IMG/VR virus record: IMGVR_UViG_3300033144_005310
Coordinates: 1-41,990 of that record
Length of the DNA: 41,990 nucleotides
DNA from: a virus
Direction: 5' to 3' (one strand)
Each line of letters starts with the position of its first letter. The stretch's first letter is position 1. This document shows positions 1 through 41,990 of the stretch, one piece after another. The position numbers were made by a program, and so were the translations under genes. Below the pieces are notes generated by a model, which was given only the letters and a program-made list of their open reading frames with translations, made no database searches and was not told where the DNA came from.

Positions 1-114
1 CCATTTATTCCTCCACTAATTATATTTATCTCACAAGTTCTTAACCACCAAACTGCTTCTTCATGAACTGGTGCTGCATATGCGGCTTGTATAAGTAATA
101 AACTTTTCCAAGTA
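1..114. repeat. Terminal direct repeat, copy 1 (circular-assembly overlap or terminal redundancy)
   Basis: Bases 1-114 are identical base for base to 41877-41990. An ORF reads through the junction. Confidence 0.95.
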
Positions 115-1448
115 CTATTATAACATTGCCAATCAACCCAATTACTTATTCCAGTATGTTGTTCAACTCTTAATCTTATTTTATCTGCATCAGCATCAAA
201 ACAATCAGAAGGGATAGTAAGATTTCTTGTAGCTGCAGGAGAAATTTGACTCATACTTCTTACTTGCCATATAGCTCCATTTGGATAAGTTGGTTTGGTA
301 TAATTAAAATAAATATGCGTTGTAAGTTCCTCTTCAGGGGAAGACCATGTGTCCCAATCTTCATCATAAGAATTACTACAAGGCTGAGTGACAGACCAAG
401 TTCCATCACAAAAAATTTCATCTGCTGTTTCTTGATAAAATCCAGATGTATTCATTGTTATAAACTTATGTCCATCCATTCCCCAATAAATCGCTTCTTC
501 TGTTATTTGTGATTCAGCTGAGGCACCAGAATATATAGAAATCCATGAAGTGCTATTATAACAATAGAGACTAATAGGAGTAAACATATCAGCAATCCTT
601 GCTTGTAAATAAATATAATCAGCAATACCACTCATACAACTTTCTGGCAAAGTAAAATTATAACTTTCACCAACTGGGTTTGTTTTAAATTGCCATTTTG
701 CTTCAGCTATAGAATCTTCTGGTTTTGTATAATTCCAAGTCATAGCAATAGGAAAAGAGGAAGATTGGTCACGAGAAAAATAAGTGTCCCAATCTCCATC
801 ATTTGCATCATCAGGATTATGTCCTTGAGAACCTACACAACCTGGACAAGTCCAATTATCTGCATGTTCTTGATATTCATAATAAAATGGATTAAAATCA
901 AAAGTAGCATTTAAAGTAAGTGTTCCTGGATTATAAATAGTTATATTTCCGGGTATTGTTTGATTTGAATTAAATATACAATTTTCAGAACAATTTAAAT
1001 TCCAAGTTCCAGAGTAAGGTGCATAACATGGTCCTGTTGGTGCAAGTTTTAAAATAATTCCTGATGGACTTGTATCATTCATAAAAGTAAAGTTTGAATT
1101 AAAAACATCATTTAAATAAAAAGAAAAGTTTTGATTATAAGTTGTTTCATTGAAAGTAACATTAAGATTTACAAATCCATTAGCATCTGTAAGTCCTGAA
1201 TTAATCGTAACTGCTTCTTTTTTAATTGTTACATTTACACTTTCTATATATTCATCAAATTCATCTTTTACAAATATTGGAAAATATCTATTAGCAGAAG
1301 CATTTATGTCCCAATCATAAAGAGCAGTTAAATCAATATAACCATAAATAACTGGTCTATGGTCTCCAGGTACTCCAACTCCATTTATTTCAATATTTGT
1401 AATATCAGAATAGGGGGTTGTGAAATTATTAAGAGAAGTTCCTCTCAT
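1..1448 (-). CDS. Adhesin-like protein with two tandem ~110-aa repeat domains. The ORF wraps the contig junction (483 aa in total).
   Basis: Hand translation from ATG 1448 (ATGA overlap with the upstream stop) is open to base 1. It continues in the repeat copy to TAA at 41873-41875. About 20 N-x-S/T sequons. Absent from the track because it runs off the window edge. Confidence 0.8.
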   Translation of the reverse strand, partial: MRGTSLNNFTTPYSDITNIEINGVGVPGDHRPVIYGYIDLTALYDWDINASANRYFPIFVKDEFDEYIESVNVTIKKEAVTINSGLTDANGFVNLNVTFNETTYNQNFSFYLNDVFNSNFTFMNDTSPSGIILKLAPTGPCYAPYSGTWNLNCSENCIFNSNQTIPGNITIYNPGTLTLNATFDFNPFYYEYQEHADNWTCPGCVGSQGHNPDDANDGDWDTYFSRDQSSSFPIAMTWNYTKPEDSIAEAKWQFKTNPVGESYNFTLPESCMSGIADYIYLQARIADMFTPISLYCYNSTSWISIYSGASAESQITEEAIYWGMDGHKFITMNTSGFYQETADEIFCDGTWSVTQPCSNSYDEDWDTWSSPEEELTTHIYFNYTKPTYPNGAIWQVRSMSQISPAATRNLTIPSDCFDADADKIRLRVEQHTGISNWVDWQCYNSTWKSLLLIQAAYAAPVHEEAVWWLRTCEINIISGGIN

Positions 1449-3940
1449 AGACATATAGTTTCTATACTTGTCCATGTTCCAGAAAAGTCTGTATTTTCTA
1501 CATGAAGTATGCTTGTTGTTCTTATTGAAGATGCATCATTAAAAATAGAATTATTAATATAAGCAATTCCATTTGCTTCTCCTGCATATAATGTATTTGT
1601 AATATTTACCCCAATTAAATCAACATCATAATCACAACCAGTAGCAGTAATATGATTTGTAACAGAAACGTCTGGTTCTAAATCATCTATAAAAACTGTA
1701 CATTCTAAATCTGAATATAAAGACAAAGAAATAATAGTTCCTCCTGTAACTTTATTTGTTGTATCTTCATAAAATTGGACTTTATTGATACTTGTTCCTG
1801 CTCCAGATATATCTACAATAGCCCAATCTGCTGTAATAAAAATATAAGTATCAACTGTTATATTTATTATAGTGCTATTTGAATATTCTTCAAATCTTGT
1901 ATAATAATTAGTTTCAGTATTTGTTAATGTATTGTTTGAATTATTTGTAAACATTAAAAATATCTTATTACTAAAATTTGCAGAATTAAGAATAGATTCT
2001 CCTGCAACATTAAAGTGGGAAAGATAACTTGTTGAGTTCATATAAGTATCATTAAAGTCAACATAAGCTCCAGAATAAGTTGTAAACTCATAATCATAAT
2101 TAGAACTTCCATTCATTATAAAAGTAACATTAGTTAAATTAAGAGAACCACCATTTAAAATATTCACATCACAATTTGCAGTTATTGTTCTATCTGAGAA
2201 ATTTCTTGCTTCATCTATATTACACTCATAGGCTGTATTCCAATTATCATCTATTACTTTGGGGGTATAAGTTATATTAACTTTATGTAATTGTATTGTT
2301 TCTGAAGTATCTGAAGTAGTTAAAAATGCCTTATATTGAAACCATTGTAATTCTCCTGTTCCAGTTAAACTTTCTCCTGAAGTATTATAAAAGGTATTTA
2401 TTGTTCCATCTGGTCCATAAAAAGTTTCTCCAGCACAAGCATTATCATCACAATCTCTTACTTGAAATGTAAGATTTTGAATTGTATTGTTTATGTCAAC
2501 AGACCAACTGATTGTCTCCCAAGTAGAATTGCCTTCAGCATCAAAAACTTTAGAAATGTAATCTCCTGCAGAATCATAAGTTATAGGAAATTCCTCTGTT
2601 TCAGTATGGTTCTGTGGATTATCATTTGCTTGTGAAACAAATTCAATAGAATTATTATCAACATCCATTCCATTACCATAGTTCTCCTGTGCTCCTCCTG
2701 AAGCAAGAAGAACTGCTGTTGAGTTACTTAATGCTTTTCTTTCTATACTTCCTCCATCTGGCGGTTGAGCAGCACAAGTTCCATTGCAGTCTGTTGCAAG
2801 CCCATAACCAACCCAATCAACTATATCTACATCTGTTGGTCCTGATATAGGACCTGTTCCCAAATAAATTGTATTTGAATCTGTTAAAGTAAATCCTGCT
2901 GATGTTCCTATTGCATCTGCCATATCTAAAAAACTCTGGGTTGCATCGTCTTTAACGATTAAATAAAATCCATAAGCAGAAATGGTAACTCCTCCTGGAT
3001 AAGTTCCATCTGCTGCATCTCCTATTCTCATTAAAATAGCTGGGTCTCCTCCTCCAGACGATATTCTTTCAATTCTATATGAACTTGCATTTAAATCTAT
3101 TGCTGAACCAGTTGGATTGTAAATTTCAATCCAATCATCATCAGTTCCACCCGTTCCATCTATGCTGTCTATTTGAATCTCTGAAATAACTAAATGGTCT
3201 GTTATATTTTCATCTTGAGTTGCAACTAAAGTTAAATCTCCTCCTACTGTTGATTCTGTATGGTTATAAGTTCCTAAATCCCAATCTGCTTGTGAATCTG
3301 TAGCCCAAGTAGGATAAGGAACAACATATAAAATATCATTAATTAAAACTGAATAATTAAAAATACCTTCTGTATTTAAAGGAATATAAAAAGAATCTGA
3401 ATAACTATAACTTGTTTCTTTTTCTAATATATCCTCTTTTAATATTTTTGTATCTGAAGTTTCTTTTTCTAATAATTCTTTCTCTTTCTCCATATCTGCG
3501 TTTTCATAGATTTCTGTTTTAAAAGAATCAAAATCTTTAATAGTAACTGCTTCATCATTTGTGTTTTCTACAATTACTTTATAATCACATTTCTGCCTTC
3601 TTTCTCCATCAATTAGATAATATCCATAACATTCAATGTGCTCTGGAGAAAAGGTTATCTTAAAACCATCTTTTGCCATTACTGCATCTCCATCAATATT
3701 CATATAAGGAAAAGTGTCCATATCTACAACTTGTGCTTTGGTTATTCTATAACATCCTTTTTCTGTTGCAGAAAGTCCAGAACAAACTTTATAATCATTA
3801 TTATCTTCACAGAAATAAATATTCTCTTGGTTAGTTTCAATCCAACCTGTTTCACACATTGATTTTCCAGGACCTAATAATAATGTTGCTAAAATTATAG
3901 CAAAGATAGTTGCTGTATTCATAGAAACTATCTTAACCAT
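1445..3940 (-). CDS. Exported adhesin-like protein: signal peptide, Cys-rich motif, lamin-tail domain (LTD), C-terminal beta-helix-like repeats
   Basis: 831-aa ORF. Hydrophobic N-terminus ATIFAIILATLLLGPG. LTD-like stretch ISEIQ..DDDWIEIYNPTGSAIDLN..YGFYLIV. The C-terminal third is made of short N/T/S-rich repeats. Confidence 0.8.
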   Translation of the reverse strand: MVKIVSMNTATIFAIILATLLLGPGKSMCETGWIETNQENIYFCEDNNDYKVCSGLSATEKGCYRITKAQVVDMDTFPYMNIDGDAVMAKDGFKITFSPEHIECYGYYLIDGERRQKCDYKVIVENTNDEAVTIKDFDSFKTEIYENADMEKEKELLEKETSDTKILKEDILEKETSYSYSDSFYIPLNTEGIFNYSVLINDILYVVPYPTWATDSQADWDLGTYNHTESTVGGDLTLVATQDENITDHLVISEIQIDSIDGTGGTDDDWIEIYNPTGSAIDLNASSYRIERISSGGGDPAILMRIGDAADGTYPGGVTISAYGFYLIVKDDATQSFLDMADAIGTSAGFTLTDSNTIYLGTGPISGPTDVDIVDWVGYGLATDCNGTCAAQPPDGGSIERKALSNSTAVLLASGGAQENYGNGMDVDNNSIEFVSQANDNPQNHTETEEFPITYDSAGDYISKVFDAEGNSTWETISWSVDINNTIQNLTFQVRDCDDNACAGETFYGPDGTINTFYNTSGESLTGTGELQWFQYKAFLTTSDTSETIQLHKVNITYTPKVIDDNWNTAYECNIDEARNFSDRTITANCDVNILNGGSLNLTNVTFIMNGSSNYDYEFTTYSGAYVDFNDTYMNSTSYLSHFNVAGESILNSANFSNKIFLMFTNNSNNTLTNTETNYYTRFEEYSNSTIINITVDTYIFITADWAIVDISGAGTSINKVQFYEDTTNKVTGGTIISLSLYSDLECTVFIDDLEPDVSVTNHITATGCDYDVDLIGVNITNTLYAGEANGIAYINNSIFNDASSIRTTSILHVENTDFSGTWTSIETICL

Positions 3941-5668
3941 TTAATTCACCTTTATTACCAATTCACCATCTGTACTATTCCAATAAATATATCCATCTTC
4001 TGAATCGCCAAAGTATATCTTTTTATCATTTGGAATATACATGTCGTCTGAAAAAGAAGAATTACCAACTACTTCTAATTTATGAGTTGGTGTTGCAGTT
4101 CCAATACCTATTTCATTATCATTATAATCTACAACTAAAGTATTTGAATCAATATTTAAGTCAGAAGTTAAATCTCCTGTTGAATCTCCTGTTTTAATAA
4201 TATAAGTTGCATTACCTATTGTTTCTATTGTCTTATTTAATTTAGTTTCATTTAAATGTAATATGTCTGTAATATTGTATAAATAATTACTTCCTGTTAA
4301 ATTCCATCCACTTGTAATGCCAGTTAATAAACTTCCATCTCCATTAAAGAAATCTGTAGTGATATTATAACCTGTATTATCTAAATTCATATCTTTATGA
4401 AATGAAAGAGGGTCTATTTCATATCCTATGGGAGTTCCATATCCTGTTGCTATTGCTAACCAATCAATGTAATAATGGTTATTTGTATTTCCATTGGAAG
4501 ATTTATAAAATCTTAACTGAACTATTCCTCCTGAAATATGACTTGAGGGGTCAAATACTGTTCTGTCTATTATTTTAAAATCAGTAGTTGTACCGATAAT
4601 TGGGTAATCTTCCCATTCAAGAGTATCATAATTCCATAATTGAAGAATAGGATAATCACCAGATAGTTCACTTGTTTTATATCTCATTATCAATAGATTG
4701 AAAGTTTCTCCATCTGTAAAGTTAATTCTAACATCTAACCCTGGGCTTCCTGAAGCTTCTGAAATATTCATTGTAATTCCATCATAACTTCCATCTGAAT
4801 GTGTTGTATTACTTAGACTTCCACCATCTAAAGTTCCAGCAACTATATTCATTGAAATTGCATCATAATAAGTAGTAGATAACATCGATTCGTTAAAATC
4901 AAAAGTTGAACCATCAAAACTACTCCATTCGTCTGTAGTTGTCCAATTAAATTTAGCATTAACATAAGCACCACCAGTAAGAGTTAAATTTCCTGTCATT
5001 TCATCTCCTGAAGTAAGAACATAAACATCTGAAATACCTGTGCAAGTTACACTATCATCTATTTGTGTAACATAAGTATCTACTGGACAAGCTGCAGGAT
5101 AAGTATGTAATCCTGTCCAAGTCATAAAATCTGTTGAATTAGAATTATTAACATTTAAATCTCCTTCTGTTGCTTGTGTTATAAAAGTATTATCTGTATA
5201 AGTTTTCATAGAATCATTAAAAATAACATCTTGTGTATCTACATAAGTTTTCATGCTGGAATTTGCACTAACGACTATTGAATCTATTGTTGCGTTTAGT
5301 TGAGTTTCGTTAAGTGTTAGTGTAGTTCCAGACATATAAATATAAATATCACCCACTGCTGTTATGAATTTATTTAATATCCCACTCCATTCTATAAAAC
5401 TTGTGGTGTTTGAATGATTAACATTTAAATCTGCTTGGGAAGTTTCACTATCCCAATATGTTGAAGTATTTGAATAACTTGAATAATTAGAAGTTATAGC
5501 ATAAGTTGCATTACCACTAAAAGTTCCTGAAAAGTTATCTGCTTCCACTAAAGTAATATTGGTAATATTATATTTGTTATAATTTGTATTATCATAAACA
5601 TATTTTGTTCCACTAACGGAAACTATTAAAAGTAATGATATTAAAATCATTAATATTGTTTTTTTCAT
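3941..5668 (-). CDS. Exported fibre/adhesin-like protein, sequon-dense
   Basis: 575-aa ORF with SD GGAGGA. Classical signal peptide MKKTILMILISLLLIVSVSG. About 28 N-x-S/T sequons by manual count. Confidence 0.75.
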   Translation of the reverse strand: MKKTILMILISLLLIVSVSGTKYVYDNTNYNKYNITNITLVEADNFSGTFSGNATYAITSNYSSYSNTSTYWDSETSQADLNVNHSNTTSFIEWSGILNKFITAVGDIYIYMSGTTLTLNETQLNATIDSIVVSANSSMKTYVDTQDVIFNDSMKTYTDNTFITQATEGDLNVNNSNSTDFMTWTGLHTYPAACPVDTYVTQIDDSVTCTGISDVYVLTSGDEMTGNLTLTGGAYVNAKFNWTTTDEWSSFDGSTFDFNESMLSTTYYDAISMNIVAGTLDGGSLSNTTHSDGSYDGITMNISEASGSPGLDVRINFTDGETFNLLIMRYKTSELSGDYPILQLWNYDTLEWEDYPIIGTTTDFKIIDRTVFDPSSHISGGIVQLRFYKSSNGNTNNHYYIDWLAIATGYGTPIGYEIDPLSFHKDMNLDNTGYNITTDFFNGDGSLLTGITSGWNLTGSNYLYNITDILHLNETKLNKTIETIGNATYIIKTGDSTGDLTSDLNIDSNTLVVDYNDNEIGIGTATPTHKLEVVGNSSFSDDMYIPNDKKIYFGDSEDGYIYWNSTDGELVIKVN

Positions 5669-6238: not shown

Positions 6239-6254
6239 TTTATAAAACCAACGA
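6239..6254 (-). promoter_or_regulatory. Conserved 16-nt motif, copy A (coding strand TCGTTGGTTTTATAAA); putative BRE/TATA-type late promoter
   Basis: Identical 16-mer at 9395-9410 and 41555-41570. Exactly 22 nt separate the box from the SD-less ATG at 6216. The motif overlaps the last codons (SLVL-stop) of the upstream gene. Confidence 0.6.
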
Positions 6255-7592: not shown

Positions 7593-9305
7593 TTATACCT
7601 CTTGGTCTGGTATCTTACTTACAACATCAACTAAAGCATTTCCAATATCATCTATAAAGTTATCCAATTCATCAATTAATTCTTTTGGTTTATCTGTTGC
7701 CTTTTCTTCTGGTTTCTCTTTCTTCTTAAAAGGATTTTCTTTCTTTTTATCTTTGGGTTCTTCATTATCAGAAAAACCAGATTCTTCTTGTGGATTTTGA
7801 TTATTAAATGTTTCTTGTTCTATCTCTCTTTGTTCTTCCTTTTGTTTAACCAATTCTTCAATATCAATTCCTAACTCTTTTGCTACCATTTCAGGTGTCT
7901 TAATTCCCATATTGATTTGTTTAGCAAATAAATCATGTTTTTTATTATCTTCATCTAAATCATATTCATCATAAACAAATTCAATAGGAACATCTCCAGA
8001 ATCTGGTATTTCTTTTCCATTAGCAAAGAACTCGGGCATTATCTGTGTATTAAAGTGATAAGCCAAGACATCAAGTAAAGGTTTAATTGCTTTTCTCTTT
8101 GCTAATTTTGTTTGCTCTTGTGATACTGCTTTATTTGAATTTTCAGTAAATCCCATTTCTTCTGCAGTAACTCCAAAACACATCCAAAGTAATTTAGTAA
8201 ACCATTGTTGTTGGGTTATAACTTCCATTTCTTTTGGATTTAATTGGAATGGTGTAAATTTAACTTCTGTTGTAGTAATAGGATATGTGAAGAACTTCTT
8301 TCTTCTTCTTCCTAAATCATCTGTATATTTAAATTGTTGTTCAAAGTTTTGTCTAAAATTAGTTATTTGTGATTGTTGTGCTCCTAAAAGTTGTATAACC
8401 CCTTCTGGCATATTATTATTAGTATAGAAATCTAAATTAAAGTCTGCTCCATAAATAAGATTAAGTATGATTTCAGTAAGAATCTCAATAGGACTTCTAC
8501 CATAAATACTATCTCCTCTTGGGTTCTGCATAATATAAACAATCTCTCTCTTACCAAAAGGAACTGGCATACTTCCTGCAGTCCATCCATATTGGAAATA
8601 TGCAGCTTGTTGTCTATATAGAATATCATATTGTTTCATTAATTGCTGTTGAGATTCACTTGGACTTCCACCAACACTTATTCCAACTCCAGTAAAACCA
8701 TCTGGTAAAGGTGGGACAAAATCTGCTTTATCTCCCATATAACCATAAATGTCTGGGTTCTTTAAGAAAGTTGCACCATCTCTTGCAAACATTTGCTTAA
8801 ACTCTCCTTTTCTATTAAATACTTTTACTAAAACTCCTGCATCTATTTCAGATATATCAGTAATTAATTGTCTTGTAATGTGTCCTAAACTTTGTTCATT
8901 ACCATTAGGATTATTAAAGAATTTGGTGACTTCTTTTATCTTATTATCATAATTTATTGGTTCTGCTTTTTCTTCTGGTCCTTCTTTATCATCTTCCTCT
9001 TTTTTATCATTATTTGATTCATTAAATTCTTCCTTAACTTTAATTTCCCATCCAACAGAAGTAGCTTCATCACATAAAGTTTTAATAATAGAAAAAACAT
9101 AAGGGTTCTTTGCTAATGTTTTAAATGCCTGTAAGTTTACCTTTCTTGGCATTCCATAAGGTGGTTTATATAAGAAATTAGGAATATATGCTTTAAATAC
9201 ACCATCATCTTTTGCTTCTCTTAATGCTGGTCTATTATTATAAGCACTGTTATCACTAACAGCTTTCACTATAGGTGCTGTATTATATTGAAAAAATTGC
9301 ATCAT
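7593..9305 (-). CDS. Portal protein
   Basis: 570-aa ORF between the terminase and Mu F-like genes. Size and acidic C-terminus are typical of portal proteins. Confidence 0.8.
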   Translation of the reverse strand: MMQFFQYNTAPIVKAVSDNSAYNNRPALREAKDDGVFKAYIPNFLYKPPYGMPRKVNLQAFKTLAKNPYVFSIIKTLCDEATSVGWEIKVKEEFNESNNDKKEEDDKEGPEEKAEPINYDNKIKEVTKFFNNPNGNEQSLGHITRQLITDISEIDAGVLVKVFNRKGEFKQMFARDGATFLKNPDIYGYMGDKADFVPPLPDGFTGVGISVGGSPSESQQQLMKQYDILYRQQAAYFQYGWTAGSMPVPFGKREIVYIMQNPRGDSIYGRSPIEILTEIILNLIYGADFNLDFYTNNNMPEGVIQLLGAQQSQITNFRQNFEQQFKYTDDLGRRRKKFFTYPITTTEVKFTPFQLNPKEMEVITQQQWFTKLLWMCFGVTAEEMGFTENSNKAVSQEQTKLAKRKAIKPLLDVLAYHFNTQIMPEFFANGKEIPDSGDVPIEFVYDEYDLDEDNKKHDLFAKQINMGIKTPEMVAKELGIDIEELVKQKEEQREIEQETFNNQNPQEESGFSDNEEPKDKKKENPFKKKEKPEEKATDKPKELIDELDNFIDDIGNALVDVVSKIPDQEV

Positions 9306-9394: not shown

Positions 9395-9410
9395 TTTATA
9401 AAACCAACGA
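9395..9410 (-). promoter_or_regulatory. Conserved 16-nt motif, copy B (putative promoter of the portal transcription unit)
   Basis: Identical to copies A and C. Overlaps SLVL-stop of ORF 9396..9860. Lies about 90 nt upstream of the portal ATG. Confidence 0.55.
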
Positions 9411-10269: not shown

Positions 10270-10508
10270 TTTTTCTGTTTAAATGTTTTCCTTTCTGATG
10301 CACTCATATCATCCCATTTAAGTATTTTACCAACCATTTTTACTCTAAATGTTTTCATACATCTTTGACATTGAAATATTAAAATATAATCTTGTAATAT
10401 CTTTACTCTATATTTACCTATTGTCTTTGGAACTTTACTTCCATGACTTCCTTTCCAATAAGTGCAATAAGGACAAGTAAAATATTTAGTTACCAATATT
10501 ACCTCCAA
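10251..10508 (-). CDS. Small Zn-ribbon protein
   Basis: Contains CPYC ... CQRC. The likely true start is TTG at 10496, behind SD GGAGGT. Confidence 0.55.
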   Translation of the reverse strand: MEVILVTKYFTCPYCTYWKGSHGSKVPKTIGKYRVKILQDYILIFQCQRCMKTFRVKMVGKILKWDDMSASERKTFKQKKWNKKK

Positions 10509-12024
10509 AGTCCAATATTACTTTATTAATTGTCATTAGTTCTAAAGCATAACCTATTGCTATTGGAATATCTGGATGCACTCCTGCTTCTACTAATTTG
10601 CCTTCTACTAACGCATAAGAAGTGCATTCACTTAAGATTCTATCAGCTATGGATTTATCTTTTTCTGTCTTATATGGGATTATAAACCTCTTATTTTCAA
10701 ATGCTGTGCCTAACCTCATGATAAGATTAATCTTTCCAACTGTATGTCTTTTCTCTGTCCAATCATAATCTTTATAAGCTGTCTTTCTTTTAGCTGGGTC
10801 TGATGCTCCAGTCCAGAATAATGTAATAGGTAGATTCCATTGTTGTATATCTTTAGAAATAGATTTAATTGAGTTTTCTTCTAATCCTATTTGGTCATAG
10901 TTTTCTTTAGGGTATAACTCATTTTGTATTATCTTCATTTGTTCAAATACACTTAAACCATGTTCTATTTTACAACATAATAAATAATAAAAGTCATCTT
11001 TTACTCCTAAACCACTAAATACAGAATTATTTGCAGTTATTCTATCACTAAAAGCAAAGTCCACTCCTAATGTTTTCATTTCAAACTGCATTTTAGTAAT
11101 ATCTTCTGCACTAATATCTTCTCTAAAACAACCTTCAATCCATTCTCTTTTAATTAAACTGGCACTATTATCTACAGGATTATTAAGATATTCTTGTTGA
11201 AATGGAATAGAACCAATATCATATTTAATCTTCTTTAGTTTTTCTTTAGTAAATCTATCTTTCCAGAGGATTTTATTAAAATTTTCATCACAAGCTTTGA
11301 ATATCTTACCTTTATGTTTTCTAATCTTCTTCATAAGTAAAGAATCTAATTGTAAAATAGTTCCAATAAACTTCCATCTCCCATTAATATCTAAAGAAGG
11401 AATAATAACTTTGTTTAATTTGTTTGCATCTTTTACTCTTAATTCTGGGTTAAGAACTCTAACATCTTCTTCAATATCATCTAAAATAATAAGTGTTGGT
11501 CGCATATTTCTAAACTTAAATCCTCTTAAGTTCTTTTCAAAAGATACTCCTTCTACTCTGCACCCACCTACATCTAGACAATCTTCCCTATCTCTTGCTC
11601 TATCTGCATTGTTTACTTTCTCAAGTAGGTCGCCATAGATAAATCTTAATAACTCATTATTCTTAAACTCATATTGAACTGGTGTAATAAACTGTACTGT
11701 TTTAGAATGATTTTGAGAAATATATACAATATACTTCTCTAATTTATTTACTATACAAAATATAAGATAAATAATTCCAGTGATAGATGACTTTGCATGA
11801 CCTCTTGGTGCTGCCAATGCTCCACTTTTTTCATCAAATAAAAAATCATAAATCTCACTATGAAATTTGGGTATTTTATTAGTAATAGTTTCTGGAAATA
11901 GAACCTCTGCAAATAAATTGATATTTTCTTTAAAACTAAAGATATATCGAAGTAATTCTTTTAATGTATTATCATCACCACTCTCTTTTATTATTTTGGC
12001 AATCTCTTTTTTTGTTATTTTCAT
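10486..12024 (-). CDS. terL: Terminase large subunit
   Basis: 512 aa. P-loop-like AAPRGHAKSS, Walker B LIILDDIEED, and a C-terminal nuclease-like region. Follows a small HTH gene. Confidence 0.9.
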   Translation of the reverse strand: MKITKKEIAKIIKESGDDNTLKELLRYIFSFKENINLFAEVLFPETITNKIPKFHSEIYDFLFDEKSGALAAPRGHAKSSITGIIYLIFCIVNKLEKYIVYISQNHSKTVQFITPVQYEFKNNELLRFIYGDLLEKVNNADRARDREDCLDVGGCRVEGVSFEKNLRGFKFRNMRPTLIILDDIEEDVRVLNPELRVKDANKLNKVIIPSLDINGRWKFIGTILQLDSLLMKKIRKHKGKIFKACDENFNKILWKDRFTKEKLKKIKYDIGSIPFQQEYLNNPVDNSASLIKREWIEGCFREDISAEDITKMQFEMKTLGVDFAFSDRITANNSVFSGLGVKDDFYYLLCCKIEHGLSVFEQMKIIQNELYPKENYDQIGLEENSIKSISKDIQQWNLPITLFWTGASDPAKRKTAYKDYDWTEKRHTVGKINLIMRLGTAFENKRFIIPYKTEKDKSIADRILSECTSYALVEGKLVEAGVHPDIPIAIGYALELMTINKVILDFGGNIGN

Positions 12025-12492: not shown

Positions 12493-12634
12493 CTTCTAAA
12501 TCTTTCCAATCATGTCCATGCATACAATTTGTGCATAAATAAAAACCGCGATTGTTTGTATCATATACTGGTAATGTTACTGGTTCTATATATCCTCTTT
12601 CTTTACAATTAGGACATATTTTATCATAAGTCAA
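12488..12634 (-). CDS. Possible Zn-ribbon micro-ORF (48 aa, TTG start)
   Basis: TYDKICPNCKERGY...YLCTNCMHGHDW. No clear SD; the start overlaps the end of the methyltransferase gene. Confidence 0.35.
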   Translation of the reverse strand: MTYDKICPNCKERGYIEPVTLPVYDTNNRGFYLCTNCMHGHDWKDLED

Positions 12635-24030: not shown

Positions 24031-24231
24031 TTACTTGCCAGATAAATATTTCCGACAAACATTAATCAATACTCCAGACATTGCTACAACCAATGCCGTA
24101 TATTGTCCCCAATCTATCGCTGGGATTATTTCTGATGCATAAACTACTAAAGCTGAAGCCATAGCAATTCCTGCTCCTTTTATAATCTTTTTTCCATCCT
24201 TTTTGTCTAATTTATATTGTTTACTTGCCAT
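24031..24231 (-). CDS. Holin-like protein (two transmembrane helices)
   Basis: 66 aa. Lys-rich N-terminus, two hydrophobic helices, basic C-terminus. Last gene of the late operon. Confidence 0.55.
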   Translation of the reverse strand: MASKQYKLDKKDGKKIIKGAGIAMASALVVYASEIIPAIDWGQYTALVVAMSGVLINVCRKYLSGK

Positions 24232-30804: not shown

Positions 30805-32073
30805 TTATATTCCTATACTTTCTGTAGTTCTACCAGAAAGCCCTCTTTTCATTACTTCATCTACTGCTCTTGCTATTTTATCTAAAACATTTCTATCAAA
30901 TGAACTTGCATCTAAAGCATTTACACTTATATTAATTGTTGTGCTTCCACCAGCTAATGATTGTGGATTTTTAGTAGCAATTAAATAATCTTTAGGGTCT
31001 GTTGTAATTATATCCCCTTTTGGTGTTATTATTGCATCTCTTACTGATTTTCTTCCTCCTGAAAATGAACTTGAAATTTTACTAACTGCACTACTTGCTT
31101 TATCTTTTAATGATTTTCCAAAACTTTTTATACTATCCCATTTCTTTTTTATCATATCAATAGCTGAAGTAAACCAGCCAGGTATTGTTTTTGTAAAAAA
31201 TATCTTAACTGCTTCAAAAGCTGTTTCTATTTTAGTTGGAATTGAAACAATAAACTCTTTTAGTTTTTCCCAAGCTTCAATCACAGCTTCTGGTAGTGTA
31301 ACTACTATAAATTTCTTAATTGCTTCCCAAACATCATTAAATAATTCTAAAATAGTTTCAAAGGCATATCCTGCTGCGAAAGGTAATGTTTCTAAAAAGA
31401 ATGTAGCTATCATATCCCAAGCAACTTGTGTTATTTCTGGTAAAGTTTCAGTAAAAAATATTATAAGTCCTTGCCATAATTCCACCCAATCAATAGATTT
31501 AAAAAATGAATAAATAGATTTTGACCATTCTTCAATCATTGCACCAAAGTTTATACCAAGTAAAACACCTAATCCTGCAAGAAAAACTCCTGCAATAACA
31601 CCAAGTGCAGTTCCCACTGGTCCAGCTATACTTCCAGCAATGGCACTCGCTGCAATAGTTCCACCAATTATACCTACTGCTCCTCCAACTGCTCCTCCAA
31701 CTTTTCCACCTGTTGTTTTTAATTTTGTAACAGACATTTTATAAAATGGAATTGCATATTTTAACAACAATAAAGCAAGTGGTCTAAAAATAACACTTAA
31801 TAAATCTCCTATTGGTCTTAAAATTAACATCATAGATTTAGAAAATATAGAAAGAGTTTGTTGTAATTTGGGACTTGCTTTCATTAAAGAACCCATGCTC
31901 TTTTTTATTATAGCTAATGCTCCTGCACCTATTATAACTCCTGCTGCGATTTTACTAATATCTTTGGATGTTCCACCTGTGCTTGATGTTACTCTCTTTC
32001 CAGCACTACCCATAGGTCCAGCTATTCCTGATGTATCAAATACAATCCTTGCTTTAATTGTGTCTTCTGGCAT
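30805..32073 (-). CDS. Tape measure protein
   Basis: 422 aa downstream of the G/GT chaperone. Central Gly/Ala-rich hydrophobic segments and helical flanks. Confidence 0.75.
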   Translation of the reverse strand: MPEDTIKARIVFDTSGIAGPMGSAGKRVTSSTGGTSKDISKIAAGVIIGAGALAIIKKSMGSLMKASPKLQQTLSIFSKSMMLILRPIGDLLSVIFRPLALLLLKYAIPFYKMSVTKLKTTGGKVGGAVGGAVGIIGGTIAASAIAGSIAGPVGTALGVIAGVFLAGLGVLLGINFGAMIEEWSKSIYSFFKSIDWVELWQGLIIFFTETLPEITQVAWDMIATFFLETLPFAAGYAFETILELFNDVWEAIKKFIVVTLPEAVIEAWEKLKEFIVSIPTKIETAFEAVKIFFTKTIPGWFTSAIDMIKKKWDSIKSFGKSLKDKASSAVSKISSSFSGGRKSVRDAIITPKGDIITTDPKDYLIATKNPQSLAGGSTTINISVNALDASSFDRNVLDKIARAVDEVMKRGLSGRTTESIGI

Positions 32074-32551: not shown

Positions 32552-33586
32552 TTAAACAACAATAGTCCACCATCTAATTGGGACTTTTGCTGCTCCATCT
32601 GTTAATCCACTCAATGCATATCCTGTTATTGTTATTTCCATTGCACCATCTTCTAAAGAAATTGGTGATGAATAACTTTCAAAATAAACATTTTCAAAAT
32701 CAAAGTTTACTACTCTGTCATCATTTGCTGCACCTTCTACCAAATCTAAACTCATCGTAACTGCTGTGTTTTGTGCTGAATCTAATGGTGTAGTTCCTGC
32801 TGGTAATCCACTAAATACAATACCTCTTGCTTCTAATCCACTTAAAGTTGAAGCTATATCATTATAATTTAGTTTCATGGTAAGAGTAAAGTCATACCTT
32901 CTAACTCCTGCAACTGGTTGCTGTATTAATCTGCTTCCCATAGTTCTATATAAGAACATATTATTAGCACAAGTAATCTCTGCACTCATTAATGCTCCAA
33001 CTGTGTCAGAACCAACTGTTACACTACCATCAATAAAAGTAAAAGGTCTATTTGTTGGTGCTGTATAAGTTAATAGAGTTGTTGAACTTGTTGCTGTTCT
33101 TGCAATCCAATCTGCACTTACTTTTACTGTTTCTCCTTGTGTTGCTGAAAGTGTAAAGTTATTTATTACAACTCCATCATAAGTCATAACATCATCATTT
33201 GCTCCACCTTCACTTCCTACTTCTAAAGTAAGAGTATTTACTTGTCCTGCTGCATAACCTATTTCATCTACTTCTGAAATCTCATAGGGGTCTGCTGCAG
33301 TTCCTGCTCCCGCTTTTGCTCCAATAATACAATATTGTAAAAATGAGGGGTCAGTTAATTCCCATTCCATACTTCCTGTACAATCTAAATTTCCATTAAC
33401 TACATGGGTAGCATTTCTGCCTTCTCCTATCCCATGCACTCTTATCATATTATTTGTAAGACTTGCTGAAAATGAACTTACTTTATCTACATAATCTGTT
33501 CCTGTTGGTGTTCCTGCTGTTCCAAATGCTGTATCTTCTGCATATACAACATAAGTATCTATTCCTTTATAATATGATATACTCAT
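32552..33586 (-). CDS. Major tail (tube) protein
   Basis: 344 aa immediately upstream of the chaperone and tape measure genes. No sheath-like gene is present. Confidence 0.65.
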   Translation of the reverse strand: MSISYYKGIDTYVVYAEDTAFGTAGTPTGTDYVDKVSSFSASLTNNMIRVHGIGEGRNATHVVNGNLDCTGSMEWELTDPSFLQYCIIGAKAGAGTAADPYEISEVDEIGYAAGQVNTLTLEVGSEGGANDDVMTYDGVVINNFTLSATQGETVKVSADWIARTATSSTTLLTYTAPTNRPFTFIDGSVTVGSDTVGALMSAEITCANNMFLYRTMGSRLIQQPVAGVRRYDFTLTMKLNYNDIASTLSGLEARGIVFSGLPAGTTPLDSAQNTAVTMSLDLVEGAANDDRVVNFDFENVYFESYSSPISLEDGAMEITITGYALSGLTDGAAKVPIRWWTIVV

Positions 33587-39400: not shown

Positions 39401-39414
39401 GTTGTCCTCCTATT

Positions 39415-39447
39415 GAAAAGAAAAAAACATAAGGGAAAACCCTTATG
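39415..39447 (-). terminator. Hairpin plus T-tract terminator/attenuator after the capsid gene
   Basis: mRNA CAUAAGGG-UUUU-CCCUUAUG followed by U7. The stem overlaps the capsid gene stop codon. Confidence 0.7.
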
Positions 39448-40564
39448 CGATTTCTCCAATAAAGCTGTTAAATGCTGTATTTTTTATGATTAATGTTTCA
39501 TAAATTTTCAACATAAACTTTTCACTGTCATTAGTTTTTGCAAGGTCTTCGTATGTCAAATCTTGTAATACTCTCATTTCTATAACACTCATATCAAGGA
39601 AGTAGATTGCTTTTTCAGCTGTGGTATTACTCATATACATACTTGGAATTACTGGTATTTGTCCGACCATTGTGTTTAAAACAATAGTTGAAAATCCCCA
39701 GAATACTTGCTGTGTAGGTTGCATATAACCAATTTTAGCTGTCAATAATCCAAGTAAATCAGTAAATACTGCACTTGCACAAACTGCTAAATTAGGTCTT
39801 CCACCATCATCAAATGCATATTGTATTGCTGTTTCAATATCATTTAAAGTCATTGCTGTGGTGTTTTTATCTACTTTATTTGTGGTTGATTGTAATGCAA
39901 TAATACCATCAAATTGTGTAGGGTCTGTTGCTGTTGCACCATTAACAATTAAGCTTTCTTCTAATTCTCTCATTTCTCTTGTTTTAACTAAAACTTCAAG
40001 TTGTTTTGCATTCATTGCTGATTGGTCATTGAAAGGTCCTGTTGCTCCACCTTGTGATGCAATTCCTCCTAAAATCCAACTTGGCATTGATGCGATTGCT
40101 GGACCAGTTACTCTACCAACTGAATACAAGAACTTAATAGCTGTGCTTTTTCTATCATAAGTTGTATTTGTTTCTGAGGTTGCTCCATCTTCAACTGCTG
40201 TGTATGCTCCACCTTTTGCAGTTAATTGGTTGTAATCTGCATACATACCCATGTTAGTTACTCTTGGAACTAACTCAACTAATGGTGTGTATTTTCTTGT
40301 AATATCAACAATTCTTGGGTCTACATAAATTGGGACCATAGCATAACCTGCTGTTCCTGCTCCACCTGCTGTGGTTGTTAATGCTTTCATTCCTATCTTC
40401 GCTGTATCGCCAATTTGTTCTCTTAAATCAACTTCATACTTCATTTCTCCAACACTTTTTAAATCTACTTTTTGATATACTGTTTTATTAGGTAAGTTAC
40501 CAAATGATTGTGCATAAGCACCTCCTGTGGTAAATCCTAAATCTATTGCTTGTGTTTCTGCCAT
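39443..40564 (-). CDS. Major capsid protein (HK97 fold)
   Basis: 373 aa directly after the prohead protease gene. Strong SD. Size and composition are typical. Confidence 0.8.
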   Translation of the reverse strand: MAETQAIDLGFTTGGAYAQSFGNLPNKTVYQKVDLKSVGEMKYEVDLREQIGDTAKIGMKALTTTAGGAGTAGYAMVPIYVDPRIVDITRKYTPLVELVPRVTNMGMYADYNQLTAKGGAYTAVEDGATSETNTTYDRKSTAIKFLYSVGRVTGPAIASMPSWILGGIASQGGATGPFNDQSAMNAKQLEVLVKTREMRELEESLIVNGATATDPTQFDGIIALQSTTNKVDKNTTAMTLNDIETAIQYAFDDGGRPNLAVCASAVFTDLLGLLTAKIGYMQPTQQVFWGFSTIVLNTMVGQIPVIPSMYMSNTTAEKAIYFLDMSVIEMRVLQDLTYEDLAKTNDSEKFMLKIYETLIIKNTAFNSFIGEIA

Positions 40565-40581: not shown

Positions 40582-41532
40582 TTATCTTATCATACCTAAT
40601 ATTGAAATAGGTTTTTCTGATTTTACTTCTGGTTGTTCTGGGGTTACTGATTTAAAAACATCAGTTTCTTTTAATGATTTTAATTCTTTTTCTTGAACTT
40701 CCATTTTATCTGCCATTGCTTTTAACTCTGCTGTTAATTTTTCAATAGCTTTTTCATCTACTTTTGCTTCAGCTGGTGCTTCTGCAACTTCTTCTTTTAC
40801 TTCTTCTTTAGTTTCTTCTTTTGATTCTTCTTTCACTTCTTCAGTAGCTTCTGCTGGTTTTTCTTCAACAGGTGCTTCTGATGGTTTTTCAATTTGTTCA
40901 TCTTTTGTTTCCATTGTTTCCTCCTTTGCTAATTTATTATTAATACACTCTTGTCTCATTTCAGTATCTCCAAAATCTTCTATTGCTTTAAGCATAACTG
41001 CTTTCATTCCAAAATCTGTCATTACTGCACTTTGATTTACTGGATTTCCTGTTAAGGCAACATTTAATAATGTTAAATCCTCTATAAGTCTAACTTGTGT
41101 ATCTCCTATTGTTTTCATTACTGTTTTAATTGGTTTAAATGCTATAGAAAATGCTTTAATAAATCCATCTTTAATACTCTCCCATAAATTACTAAATTTA
41201 GGACTTGCTTTATTTAATTGTGCTTTTACCCATAAACCTTTGTCGTCTATCTTTGCATCTACTATCTTTCCTGCTGGTAATATTGTTGAATCATCTCTCC
41301 AAGTTTCATGTTCGTAGTCTAACATTATTGTGCTTTCTGTTATTTGTTTCAACATGGATTTAAGTGCTGTTGGTGTTACCAAATCATTATATAAATCAAT
41401 TTCTGGAACTGAAATATATCCTGTAACATAATGTTTTTTACCTTCTAAAGTATCAACTGCCTTAAATGAAATTGTATCAGTTAGGAAAGAATAAGATTTC
41501 TCTTTAATTATTTCTTGTTTAGATTGTTCCAT
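40582..41532 (-). CDS. Prohead protease (HK97/S78-like) fused to an acidic scaffold-like C-terminus
   Basis: VTGYISVPEIDLYNDLV...MLDYEHE...DDKGLWV...AFSIAF pattern. C-terminal E/K/A-rich coiled coil. The SD-less ATG lies 22 nt after motif copy C. Confidence 0.75.
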   Translation of the reverse strand: MEQSKQEIIKEKSYSFLTDTISFKAVDTLEGKKHYVTGYISVPEIDLYNDLVTPTALKSMLKQITESTIMLDYEHETWRDDSTILPAGKIVDAKIDDKGLWVKAQLNKASPKFSNLWESIKDGFIKAFSIAFKPIKTVMKTIGDTQVRLIEDLTLLNVALTGNPVNQSAVMTDFGMKAVMLKAIEDFGDTEMRQECINNKLAKEETMETKDEQIEKPSEAPVEEKPAEATEEVKEESKEETKEEVKEEVAEAPAEAKVDEKAIEKLTAELKAMADKMEVQEKELKSLKETDVFKSVTPEQPEVKSEKPISILGMIR

Positions 41533-41554: not shown

Positions 41555-41570
41555 TTTATAAAACCAACGA
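41555..41570 (-). promoter_or_regulatory. Conserved 16-nt motif, copy C (putative promoter of the protease-capsid unit)
   Basis: Identical to copies A and B. Starts 1 nt after stop 41572. There are 22 nt from the TTTTATAAA box to ATG 41532. Confidence 0.6.
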
Positions 41571-41571: not shown

Positions 41572-41880
41572 TTATTCTATAATAGAACAACCTTGATTAT
41601 CACAACTATATTTTACTCCAATATTCTTTTCTGTTATTATTTGTTCTTGCTCAAAGTCATTTTCAATTTCCATCCAACCACTTCTACACAATTTATTTCC
41701 AATTTCTGCATTCCAACATTTTCCACTATCTAATCCATAATATGCTGTTAATTTATCACATTGCATAACTATATTTCTATCTTCACAAAAATAAGTATCA
41801 TCACTTAAAATATTTACTCCACCTAAAAATAGGATAGAAGTTAAAAATACACTTAATATGCTTGTTTTAATTTTATCCAT
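41572..41880 (-). CDS. Small exported Cys-rich protein
   Basis: 102 aa. Signal peptide ILSVFLTSILFLGGVNI. YFCEDRN and CRSGWMEIE motifs are shared with the 831-aa LTD protein. Confidence 0.7.
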   Translation of the reverse strand: MDKIKTSILSVFLTSILFLGGVNILSDDTYFCEDRNIVMQCDKLTAYYGLDSGKCWNAEIGNKLCRSGWMEIENDFEQEQIITEKNIGVKYSCDNQGCSIIE

Positions 41881-41990
41881 TTATTCCTCCACTAATTATA
41901 TTTATCTCACAAGTTCTTAACCACCAAACTGCTTCTTCATGAACTGGTGCTGCATATGCGGCTTGTATAAGTAATAAACTTTTCCAAGTA
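41873..41990 (-). CDS. 3' end (with stop codon) of the wrap-around ORF 1..1448, seen in the duplicated terminus
   Basis: ...SGGING then TAA at 41873-41875. Same sequence as 1-114. Confidence 0.8.
   Translation of the reverse strand, partial: TWKSLLLIQAAYAAPVHEEAVWWLRTCEINIISGGING
41877..41990. repeat. Terminal direct repeat, copy 2
   Basis: Identical to 1-114. Confidence 0.95.

What the first reader, a model, noticed from the sequence alone, without database searches (positions are those of the whole stretch)
1..41990. Host-domain clues conflict; on balance they point to an archaeal host
**Clues favouring an archaeon:**
- TATA-box-like 8-mers lie exactly 22 nt before SD-less ATGs at 6216, 41532 and 16276.
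- Operon ends are marked only by oligo-T tracts (20109-20127, 23972-24001).
- The exported proteins are sequon-dense.
- A 37-aa RHH protein (19937..20050) resembles the mostly archaeal VapB/CopG-like antitoxin family.
- A Cas4-like nuclease is present, as is common in archaeal viruses.

**Clues favouring a bacterium:**
- A textbook hairpin plus U7 terminator follows the capsid gene (39415-39447).
- TATAAT-like boxes occur in the early element.
- NUMOD3/HNH homing endonucleases are present.
- There is a holin-like final gene.

Strong GGAGGTGA SDs fit both low-GC Firmicutes and methanogen-type archaea. If the host is archaeal, this would be a low-GC archaeal tailed virus with an unusual cargo.
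Basis: inference. Interest (0 to 1): 0.6.

Follow-up and report, generated by a model that had tools for sequence, protein, structure and literature searches.

The report
Tailed virus of a DPANN archaeon
The window is the complete 42-kb genome of an uncultivated head-tailed virus, and several independent lines of evidence point to an archaeal host, most likely a tiny DPANN archaeon of the Woesearchaeales group, rather than a bacterium.

Summary

**What the window is.** It is a whole IMG/VR virus record: 41,990 nt with a 114-nt terminal overlap and all genes on the minus strand.

**Evidence for an archaeal host:**
- **Promoter geometry.** A TATA-like 8-mer lies 21-24 nt before an SD-less ATG at the head-protease gene. 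This holds in the window and in seven diverged relatives. About 1% of ATGs in the window have such a box.
- **Linked relative.** A TerL 72% identical to the window's sits 6.4 kb from a seryl-tRNA synthetase on an 89.7-kb metagenome contig. Every named close homologue of that synthetase is from Nanoarchaeota, Woesearchaeota or "archaeon".
- **Shared geometry.** That synthetase gene has the same TATA-21 nt-ATG arrangement.
- **Sequons.** N-X-S/T is enriched 2-2.7-fold only in three large, mostly signal-peptide-bearing proteins. There is no bacterial -2 acidic signature.
- **Archaeal gene family.** The 37-aa RHH gene passes Pfam's VAPB_antitox cut-off. That family rang only in archaeal control genomes and in 1 of 301 Patescibacteria.
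- **No bacterial signal excess.** Sigma-70-like promoters and hairpin terminators are not enriched.

**Counter-clues.** Distant TerL relatives lie in CPR prophages, and the LTD domain is nearest to CPR proteins. Both are remote or ambiguous.

**Limits.** No CRISPR spacer test was possible.

**Odds.** Archaeal about 0.85; DPANN about 0.65.

The parts
1..114 (.). Terminal direct repeat, identical to 41877-41990. It is an assembly overlap of a circular or terminally redundant genome; the unique length is 41,876 bp.
41555..41570 (-). Promoter motif copy C (TCGTTGGTTTTATAAA). The TATA-like box ends 22 nt before the SD-less ATG at 41532.
40582..41532 (-). Prohead protease/scaffold-like gene, first gene of the capsid operon, with a leaderless-type start.
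   Evidence: weak Peptidase_S78_2 hit; relatives
39443..40564 (-). Major capsid protein, SU10 type (HK97 fold family).
   Evidence: PF17236, 81 bits
39427..39448 (-). 9-bp hairpin followed by T7 after the capsid gene. Relatives keep only the oligo-T run, not the hairpin.
32552..33586 (-). Tail tube protein.
   Evidence: PF18906
33583..34272 (-). NUMOD3-HNH homing endonuclease.
30805..32073 (-). Tape measure protein (422 aa, implying a short tail).
   Evidence: phrog_58
24031..24231 (-). Last late gene: 66 aa with two hydrophobic segments (holin-like). No lysin domain was found anywhere in the genome.
23972..24001 (-). Oligo-T tract at the end of the late operon.
21590..22453 (-). Cas4/Dna2-like PD-(D/E)XK nuclease with conserved cysteines.
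20109..20127 (-). Oligo-T tract at an operon end.
19937..20050 (-). 37-aa RHH protein of the VAPB_antitox family (PF02697) and DUF7557. The family match runs on in frame through two TAA stops into the next ORF.
17530..18093 (-). Second HNH endonuclease.
12624..13790 (-). ParB-N / N6-N4 DNA methyltransferase fusion.
10486..12024 (-). Terminase large subunit. It is the marker that links the family to a Woesearchaeal contig.
9395..9410 (-). Promoter motif copy B, 89 nt before the SD-led portal ATG.
7593..9305 (-). Portal protein.
   Evidence: PF04860
6240..7592 (-). Mu F-like head morphogenesis protein.
6239..6254 (-). Promoter motif copy A. The box ends 22 nt before the SD-less ATG at 6216.
3941..5668 (-). 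575-aa protein with an N-terminal signal-like segment; N-X-S/T sequons 28 observed versus 12.5 expected.
1445..3940 (-). 831-aa protein with an N-terminal hydrophobic segment and an LTD domain; sequons 26 observed versus 13.3 expected.
3..1475 (-). Protein of at least 490 aa that runs into the terminal repeat; sequons 20 observed versus 7.3 expected.

Best explanation
The window is the complete genome of a lytic head-tailed virus (Caudoviricetes). It belongs to a large uncultivated family of roughly 40-42-kb genomes. Its host is an archaeon, most probably a DPANN archaeon of the Woesearchaeales (GTDB phylum Nanoarchaeota).

Proposed workings:
- **Transcription start (inferred).** The late operons start at TBP/TFB-type promoters. 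The TATA box (TTTATAAA and variants) is centred about 26-27 nt before the start codon, so the first gene of each unit is translated from a leaderless or near-leaderless mRNA.
- **Internal genes (shown from sequence).** Genes inside the operons use strong GGAGG-type Shine-Dalgarno sites.
- **Termination (inferred).** Transcription units end at oligo-T runs.
- **Glycoproteins (sequon enrichment shown; glycosylation and export inferred).** Three large proteins, two of them with signal-like N-termini, are exported and N-glycosylated by the host AglB on their over-represented N-X-S/T sites.
- **Lysis (inferred).** The virus has no recognisable peptidoglycan hydrolase, which fits a host without murein.
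For: 1. **Conserved geometry.**
   - A TATA-like 8-mer lies 21-24 nt before an SD-less ATG at the window's protease gene and at its BppU_N-like gene (22 nt each).
   - The same holds at the protease-position gene of L003 (21), L084 (24), L085 (21), L173 (21), L093 (21) and L002 (22), and at an HTH gene of L003 (24). The spacer sequences have diverged.
   - Only 12 of 1207 ATGs in the window have such a box at that distance.
2. **Contig link.**
   - Contig Ga0208647_1000029 (89.7 kb) carries a TerL 72% identical to the window's and 82% identical to that of the bona fide relative L085.
   - That TerL lies 6.4 kb from a seryl-tRNA synthetase.
   - All eight organism-named homologues among the synthetase's top 120 are Nanoarchaeota, Woesearchaeota or 'archaeon', at 67-81% identity. 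Four of them are on contigs of 100-263 kb.
3. **Same geometry on that contig.** The synthetase gene and its divergent neighbour share one TTTAAATA box, 21 nt from each SD-less ATG.
4. **Bin name.** A TerL 72% identical to the window's, on a 40.7-kb contig, is deposited under 'Candidatus Woesearchaeota archaeon'.
5. **Archaeal gene family.**
   - The RHH gene passes the PF02697 cut-off.
   - PF02697 rang in 3 of the 4 archaeal control genomes and in none of the other control genomes. It passed the cut-off in 1 of 301 Patescibacteria.
6. **Sequons.**
   - Enrichment is specific to three proteins and specific to N-X-S/T. It recurs in signal-peptide proteins of relatives L091 and L082.
   - STT3 rang in all four archaeal controls, but gave only weak partial hits in 11 of 301 Patescibacteria.
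7. **No bacterial signal excess.**
   - Sigma-70-like sites: 90 versus 129 expected, and 95 versus 107 expected.
   - Hairpin terminators: 3 versus 4.8, and 4 versus 5.0.
   - Relatives keep oligo-T, not the hairpin, after the capsid gene.
8. **No lysin, few known phage families.** No lysin domain was found, and almost no PHROG matched outside the structural genes.
Against: - No CRISPR spacer match and no full-length provirus of this family in an archaeal chromosome was obtained.
- The linked contig carries only a primase-TerS-TerL block, with no head or tail genes within 10 kb. The rest of that contig could not be fetched. The link therefore rests on one gene module and one housekeeping gene, which could itself be virus-borne.
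- Bin names of other close relatives conflict: Heimdallarchaeaceae, Bacillota, Akkermansia, Alphaproteobacteria.
- The 80 best TerL matches in species genomes include no archaeon. At 25-35% identity they are mostly Patescibacteria prophages.
- The LTD domain's named relatives are CPR bacteria and Elusimicrobia.
- A GC-rich hairpin plus T7 follows the capsid gene.
- Relatives carry a DnaG-type CHC2 zinc ribbon and a BT4734-like primase domain.
- Promoter function, leaderless starts and glycosylation are all inferred from sequence only.
Confidence: 0.65

Rival explanations
1. The host is an archaeon, but not a DPANN one. Candidates are an Asgard archaeon (Heimdallarchaeia or Lokiarchaeia), or another low-GC sediment or water-column archaeon. 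The virus would use the same archaeal promoter, oligo-T terminator and AglB logic.
For: - One close TerL (74% identity, carrying a LAGLIDADG intein) on a 39-kb contig is deposited under Heimdallarchaeaceae.
- Relative L085 comes from sample Ga0114923, the same sample that yielded the Asgard verdandivirus VerdaV6.
- All the domain-level clues (promoter geometry, PF02697, sequons) fit any archaeon.
Against: - The only relative with a housekeeping gene on the same contig points to Woesearchaeales/Nanoarchaeota.
- A second bin name is Woesearchaeota.
- Verdandiviruses are about 20 kb, and their TerL is reported to have no similarity to other viruses, so this is not that family.
- Bin names of whole viral contigs are unreliable either way.
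Confidence: 0.2
2. The host is a CPR bacterium (Patescibacteria). The virus would be a phage whose TATA-like motif is a -10-type element or a phage-specific promoter giving a short SD-less leader.
For: - Most of the 80 best TerL matches in species genomes are Patescibacteria, many on contigs of 100 kb to 1.4 Mb. They are therefore prophages, but at only 25-35% identity.
- The LTD domain of the 831-aa protein is nearest to proteins named Gracilibacteria, Parcubacteria and Staskawiczbacteria.
- Strong SD use, low GC and the NUMOD3-HNH endonuclease all fit.
Against: - The best CPR TerL is 34% identical, against 72-82% for the Woesearchaeal contig.
- PF02697 passed its cut-off in 1 of 301 sampled Patescibacteria.
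- STT3 gave only weak partial hits in 11 of 301, so a sequon-reading oligosaccharyltransferase is not evident there.
- No sigma-70 promoter or terminator excess.
- No peptidoglycan lysin was found, although CPR bacteria have murein (my own knowledge, not tested here).
- A box ending at -23 has no rationale as a bacterial -10 element for a leaderless gene.
Confidence: 0.1
3. The host is another bacterium, such as a low-GC Bacillota, Verrucomicrobiota or Alphaproteobacteria, as the MAG bin names of some relatives suggest.
For: - Close relatives L002, L003 and L004 sit in MAGs named Bacillota, Akkermansia and Alphaproteobacteria.
- TerL's nearest isolate phages infect Bacteroides, Bacillus, Paenibacillus and Clostridium, at 24-33% identity.
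- A hairpin plus T7 terminator follows the capsid gene, and there is a holin-like gene.
Against: - Those contigs are short (3.6-18 kb), wholly viral, and binned into three different phyla, so the bin names cannot all be right.
- No isolate phage matched the capsid protein or the DNA.
- No lysin was found.
- All the archaeal clues listed above also count against this.
Confidence: 0.05

Closest known systems
Archaeal tailed viruses (arTV, class Caudoviricetes), including the two Woesearchaeales tailed proviruses (WATPVs) described in PMC11705971
   Same: HK97-type capsid, portal, TerL, tail tube and tape measure are all present. The host is inferred to be archaeal, probably of the same order (Woesearchaeales).
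   Different: - The WATPVs are integrated proviruses carrying DISARM and Dnd defence systems. This genome has no integrase and was never seen integrated.
- All but one of the 120 best TerL relatives sit on contigs of at most about 42 kb, and the largest contig is 50 kb.
- No sequence comparison with the WATPVs could be made here.
Verdandiviruses (tailed viruses of Asgard archaea; bioRxiv 10.1101/2021.07.29.453957)
   Same: Uncultivated siphovirus-like archaeal viruses from marine sediment, with short tape measure proteins, arrays of small early genes and no replication genes of their own.
   Different: Verdandivirus genomes are about 20 kb, and their TerL and capsid proteins lack similarity to other viruses. 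This genome is 42 kb, and its capsid matches Pfam SU10_MCP directly.
DPANN/CPR viruses predicted in groundwater and acid-mine-drainage metagenomes (PMC11310336, PMC12647753)
   Same: Metagenome-derived Caudoviricetes assigned to DPANN hosts by computation.
   Different: Those are bulk catalogues. I read only their abstracts and did not compare sequences. Here the assignment rests on promoter geometry, gene content and a linked contig.
Prophages of Patescibacteria carrying the same TerL family
   Same: The TerL is of the same broad family (25-35% identity).
   Different: The one candidate compared (L005) has no detectable capsid or portal similarity. The identity is far below that seen within the window's own family.

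Membership tests
Caudoviricetes (tailed dsDNA viruses) | HK97-fold major capsid protein | tested here: met
   PF17236 SU10_MCP, 81.3 bits against a cut-off of 24.1.
Caudoviricetes (tailed dsDNA viruses) | Terminase large subunit and portal protein | tested here: met
   phrog_38 TerL at E 1e-49; PF04860 portal at 76.9 bits.
Caudoviricetes (tailed dsDNA viruses) | Tail genes (tube, tape measure) | tested here: met
   PF18906 tail tube; phrog_58 tape measure.
Virus of an archaeal host | Archaeal promoter geometry: TATA box centred about -26/-27 of the start, often giving a leaderless mRNA | tested here: met
   The box ends 21-24 nt before SD-less ATGs at 9 gene starts in the window and 6 relatives. 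The background rate is 1%. Transcription starts were not mapped.
Virus of an archaeal host | CRISPR spacer from an archaeal array matching the genome | not testable with these tools
   No archaeal genome handle could be reached.
Virus of an archaeal host | A close relative physically linked to archaeal chromosomal genes | tested here: inconclusive
   A TerL at 72-82% identity lies 6.4 kb from a Woesearchaeal-type seryl-tRNA synthetase on an 89.7-kb contig. No head or tail genes are nearby, and the rest of the contig could not be fetched.
Virus of an archaeal host | Genes of archaea-restricted families | tested here: met
   PF02697 is over its cut-off. It rang only in archaeal controls and passed the cut-off in 1 of 301 Patescibacteria. 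The DUF7557 match (E 1.6e-6) rang only in Haloferax and Methanosarcina.
Virus of an archaeal host | Use of N-X-S/T N-glycosylation on exported proteins | tested here: inconclusive
   Sequon enrichment has z 4.0-5.7 in three proteins only, and the control motifs are flat. Glycosylation itself is not shown.
Bacteriophage (bacterial host) | Excess of sigma-70-type promoters and hairpin-oligoU terminators | tested here: not met
   Promoter-like sites: 90 versus 129±12, and 95 versus 107±10. Terminator-like sites: 3 versus 4.8, and 4 versus 5.0. One good hairpin-T7 exists at 39427-39448.
Bacteriophage (bacterial host) | Peptidoglycan-degrading endolysin | tested here: not met
   No lysin family was found by Pfam or PHROGs in the large ORFs scanned. 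A novel lysin cannot be excluded.
Bacteriophage (bacterial host) | Close relative integrated in a bacterial chromosome | tested here: not met
   In 185,579 species genomes, matches at or above 55% TerL identity lie only on wholly viral contigs of 3.6-18 kb. Matches on long contigs are at most about 31% identical.
Verdandiviruses | About 20-kb genome whose capsid and TerL lack similarity to other viruses | tested here: not met
   This genome is 41.9 kb and its capsid is recognised by Pfam. No direct sequence comparison was possible.
Cas4 family nuclease (for 21590-22453) | PD-(D/E)XK fold with the QxxxY motif and iron-sulfur cysteines | tested here: met
   Conserved residues are D108, K129 (consensus ELK), Q140, Y144 and six cysteines. 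The model has pLDDT 93.6. The best fold hits are Cas4 8d3l at E 4.5e-5, then AdnAB, MGME1 and Dna2. The cysteine arrangement differs from canonical Cas4, so 'Cas4-like' is as far as this goes.

The most novel reading that the evidence does not exclude
This is a complete reference genome for a large, widely distributed and so far undescribed family of lytic tailed viruses of Woesearchaeales (DPANN). More than 470 TerL relatives at 57-73% identity were found, many on 40-42-kb contigs. Members of the family carry, inside the head-gene block, an operon of secreted, N-glycosylated adhesin-like proteins that could remodel the surface of an episymbiotic host cell during infection.
Probability: 0.35. 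Interest if true: 0.7.

Novelty: new member of a known kind. Interest (0 to 1): 0.5.

Why it matters
DPANN archaea are abundant, uncultivated and mostly episymbiotic. Their viruses are known almost only from bulk host predictions and two proviruses.

A complete genome with several independent host clues gives two things:
- A concrete model for how such viruses are transcribed, through a conserved, readable late promoter.
- A marker family (TerL/capsid) for tracing them in sediments and waters.

The case also shows that MAG bin names are unreliable for whole viral contigs. Contigs of this one virus family are deposited under five different phyla in two domains.

Tried and rejected
- **The look-up of sequencing runs:** none was listed.
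- **The listing of cluster members** on ten NCBI-sourced TerL relatives gave no names.
- **Isolate phages:** megablast of 14 kb and tblastn of the capsid against 50,697 phage records found no match. TerL matched only bacterial phages at 23-33% identity, which is uninformative for domain.
- **The genome search:** The control genomes give no handles, so no archaeal genomes could be searched for spacers or proviruses.
- **The L180 record** is not held, so the 89.7-kb contig could not be extended.
- **Earlier scan notes** by relatives or by sequence returned nothing.
- **ESM Atlas** on the capsid gave only 'Viruses'. On the 575-aa protein all scores were below 0.9.
- **Single-sequence AlphaFold2** of the 287-aa protein failed (pLDDT 32). 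The alignment-based model worked.
- **Rfam:** no family matched. **tRNAs:** none found.
- **Other promoter readings of the motif.** I considered sigma-54, extended -10, a T4-late-type TATAAATA and Bacteroidota -7 readings. I rejected them by eye because the spacing or flanking bases do not fit. This is inference, not a test.
- **Verdandivirus membership** was considered and rejected on genome size and on the reported lack of similarity.

Full report
**What the window is.**
- The window is a whole IMG/VR virus record of 41,990 nt, rated 100% complete with direct terminal repeats.
- The repeat is a 114-nt exact overlap (1-114 = 41877-41990), so the unique genome is 41,876 bp.
- GC content is 24-37% across 2-kb windows, and GC skew is negative throughout. 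All plausible genes lie on the minus strand. No tRNA genes and no Rfam families were found.
- Pfam and PHROGs identify the following genes:
  - TerL, 10486-12024
  - an HTH small-terminase-like gene, 12021-12434
  - a ParB-N/N6-N4 methyltransferase, 12624-13790
  - portal, 7593-9305
  - a Mu F-like protein, 6240-7592
  - a prohead-protease-like gene, 40582-41532
  - an SU10-type major capsid protein, 39443-40564
  - tail tube, 32552-33586
  - tape measure, 30805-32073
  - a NUMOD3-HNH endonuclease, 33583-34272
  - a second HNH, 17530-18093
- It is therefore a tailed virus of the class Caudoviricetes.
- No isolate phage resembles its DNA or its capsid protein.

**Check of the listed clues.**
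- *TATA motif.* The 16-nt motif TCGTTGGTTTTATAAA occurs three times. At two copies the box is followed by exactly 22 nt and an ATG with no Shine-Dalgarno sequence. At the third copy it lies 89 nt before the SD-led portal start.
- *Oligo-T tracts.* Both are present.
- *SD use.* Roughly two-thirds of 94 crudely called ORFs have a match of at least 4 nt to GGAGGTGA upstream.
- *Hairpin.* The hairpin plus T7 after the capsid gene is real.
- *RHH gene.* The 37-aa RHH gene passes the Pfam cut-off for VAPB_antitox.
- *Cas4-like nuclease.* The 287-aa protein at 21590-22453 had no Pfam hit on its own. It has 80 homologues with conserved D108, K129 (consensus ELK), Q140, Y144 and six cysteines. The alignment-based model has pLDDT 93.6, and its best fold match is Cas4 (8d3l, E 4.5e-5).
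- *Holin-like gene.* The last late gene encodes 66 aa with two hydrophobic segments.

**Are the bacterial-type signals more than chance?** No.
- Sigma-70-like sites number 90 against 129±12 in shuffles for 1-20000, and 95 against 107±10 for 20001-40000.
- Hairpin-oligoT sites number 3 against 4.8, and 4 against 5.0.
- Only the site after the capsid gene looks like a textbook terminator.
- In relatives, the same position keeps long oligo-T runs with at most weak AT-rich hairpins. The conserved element is the T run, as expected for archaeal termination (established knowledge).

**Promoter geometry across relatives.**
- TerL has more than 470 relatives at 57-73% identity, many on contigs of 39-42 kb. 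This is a large family of similar-sized genomes.
- In the nearest subgroup (L003, L084, L086) the motif is kept as GATGGTTTTAWAWA at the same places: protease, portal and an HTH gene.
- In more distant members (capsid 36-54% identical) the flanking bases differ. A TATA-like 8-mer (TTTATAAC or TTTAAATA) still ends 21-22 nt before the SD-less ATG of the protease-position gene in L085, L173, L093 and L002.
- In all, nine gene starts in seven genomes show spacings of 21-24 nt with unrelated spacer sequences.
- In the window itself, only 12 of 1207 ATGs (1%) have such a box at that distance.
- With the box ending at -23, its centre is at about -26.5 of the A of the ATG. That is the canonical place of an archaeal TATA box relative to the transcription start (established knowledge). 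It implies leaderless or nearly leaderless mRNAs.
- A bacterial -10 element at that place would give a leader of about 15 nt without an SD, in a genome where most genes have strong SDs.
- This step is inference. No transcript ends were mapped.

**A physical link to an archaeal lineage.**
- The single metagenome scan returned L180, part of the 89.7-kb contig Ga0208647_1000029.
- Its TerL is 72% identical to the window's, 82% to that of L085 and 79% to that of L173. L085 and L173 are true relatives that share portal, protease and capsid with the window.
- Next to the TerL lie a TerS of the same family and a DUF5906 primase-helicase. No head or tail genes lie within 10 kb downstream. Instead there are HARE-HTH, EVE, exonuclease, nucleotidyltransferase-HEPN and S24 peptidase genes.
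- A seryl-tRNA synthetase lies 6.4 kb upstream of the TerL.
- Among the 120 best homologues of that synthetase, all eight organism-named ones are 'Nanoarchaeota archaeon', 'Candidatus Woesearchaeota archaeon' or 'archaeon', at 67-81% identity. Four of them are on contigs of 100-263 kb.
- The synthetase gene and its divergent neighbour share one TTTAAATA box, 21 nt from each SD-less ATG. This is the same geometry as the viral late promoter.
- Whether the block is a provirus remnant, a satellite, or part of a larger virus that captured a host synthetase, it ties this terminase lineage to Woesearchaeales.
- One 40.7-kb relative is also deposited under Woesearchaeota.

**Gene content.**
- PF02697 rang in *Methanocaldococcus*, *Sulfolobus* and *Methanosarcina*, and in none of the other control genomes. 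It passed its cut-off in 1 of 301 sampled Patescibacteria.
- The weaker DUF7557 match rang only in *Haloferax* and *Methanosarcina*.
- Outside the structural genes, almost nothing matches PHROGs.
- No lysin domain was found.

**Sequons.**
- N-X-S/T (X not P) is enriched only in the three large proteins:

| Protein | Observed | Expected | z |
|---|---|---|---|
| 3941-5668 | 28 | 12.5 | 5.3 |
| 1445-3940 | 26 | 13.3 | 4.0 |
| 3-1475 | 20 | 7.3 | 5.7 |

- All 34 other proteins of at least 100 aa lie between z -1.5 and 2.7.
- Reverse, adjacent and shifted motifs, and D/Q-X-S/T, are mostly flat; the highest is z 2.4. The bacterial PglB-type acidic residue at -2 is not generally enriched.
- Two of the three proteins begin with signal-like hydrophobic segments.
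- Signal-peptide proteins of relatives show the same trend: L091 at z 3.7 and L082 at z 2.7.
- The STT3 family rang in all four archaeal controls. In Patescibacteria it gave only weak, partial matches, over the cut-off in 11 of 301.
- This fits AglB-type N-glycosylation, which is nearly universal in Archaea (my own knowledge). Glycosylation itself is not shown.

**Evidence pulling the other way.**
- In 185,579 species genomes, the three close TerL matches lie on short, wholly viral contigs binned into Bacillota, Akkermansia and Alphaproteobacteria MAGs. The remaining best matches (25-35% identity) are mostly Patescibacteria, often on long contigs, and none is archaeal.
- The named relatives of the LTD domain in the 831-aa protein are CPR bacteria and Elusimicrobia.
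- Relatives carry Prim-Pol with a DnaG-type zinc ribbon and a BT4734-like domain.
- At 25-35% identity a terminase says little about host domain.
- Bin names spanning five phyla and two domains cannot all be right, so whole viral contigs are evidently mis-binned.
- These points keep a CPR host alive as the main bacterial rival, at about 0.1.

**Comparison with known viruses.**
- Verdandiviruses of Asgard archaea are about 20 kb, with capsid and TerL lacking similarity to other viruses. This is not one of them.
- Two Woesearchaeales tailed proviruses have been described (PMC11705971). DPANN viruses have been predicted in bulk from groundwater and mine drainage (abstracts only).
- A DPANN tailed virus is therefore a known kind. 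This genome would be a new, complete and well-supported member, from a family that appears large.

**Verdict.**
- Odds: archaeal about 0.85, DPANN about 0.65, CPR about 0.1, other bacteria about 0.05.
- The decisive spacer test remains to be done.

Noticed in passing
L180:7730-11641 (contig Ga0208647_1000029): A primase-helicase/TerS/TerL block lies on an 89.7-kb contig next to a Woesearchaeal-type seryl-tRNA synthetase. No portal, capsid or tail genes lie within 10 kb. It could be a provirus remnant, a satellite-like element or part of a larger virus.
   Followed up: partly
window 19871-20050 (-): The PF02697 match continues in frame past the 37-aa ORF, through two TAA stops, into the start of the next ORF (19538-19918). 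The model is matched at positions 1-64 of 69. Possible explanations are a split or decaying longer gene, or stop-codon read-through.
   Followed up: no
P0017, P0080, P0094 (TerL relatives): Three TerL relatives of 833-839 aa carry LAGLIDADG/intein-type Pfam domains (PF05204, PF14528). This suggests inteins inside the terminase gene in some family members.
   Followed up: no
L082:3264-4394 and L083:881-2005: In two relatives the capsid gene is split into two adjacent ORFs (172+190 aa and 104+268 aa), each 72-76% identical to the window's capsid. The cause could be a frameshift, an intron or an assembly error.
   Followed up: no
window 14634-14751: A perfect 52-nt direct repeat with 66-nt spacing lies in the early region (family D6). 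Three copies of a roughly 40-54-nt element carrying GTATAA...GCATAAATGGAGGG precede small early genes (families D3 and D4). In these elements the TATA-like GTATAA ends 25 nt before the ATG, so the SD-like GGAGGG would lie upstream of a leaderless-type start.
   Followed up: partly
window 38199-39400: Two tandem gene duplications follow the capsid gene: two 105-aa genes and two 89-aa genes. A 246-nt repeat is 73% identical between its copies. Relatives vary in copy number and order.
   Followed up: no
window 18768-18986 (-): A 72-aa early protein passes the Pfam cut-off for DUF5763 (36.3 bits). That family rang in none of the 14 control genomes.
   Followed up: partly
L085:9921-12173, L173:11581-13848, L093:4614-6881, L002:3077-5233: Portal genes of several relatives encode 718-755 aa, against 570 aa in the window, and no separate Mu F-like gene follows in L085, L173 or L093. 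This suggests a portal-Mu F fusion or a different head-gene order in part of the family.
   Followed up: no
window 12476-12492 and 23905-23921 (-): A shared TAAAAGTTTTAAGCA motif lies upstream of the small-terminase gene and of the early operon. Its function was not examined.
   Followed up: no
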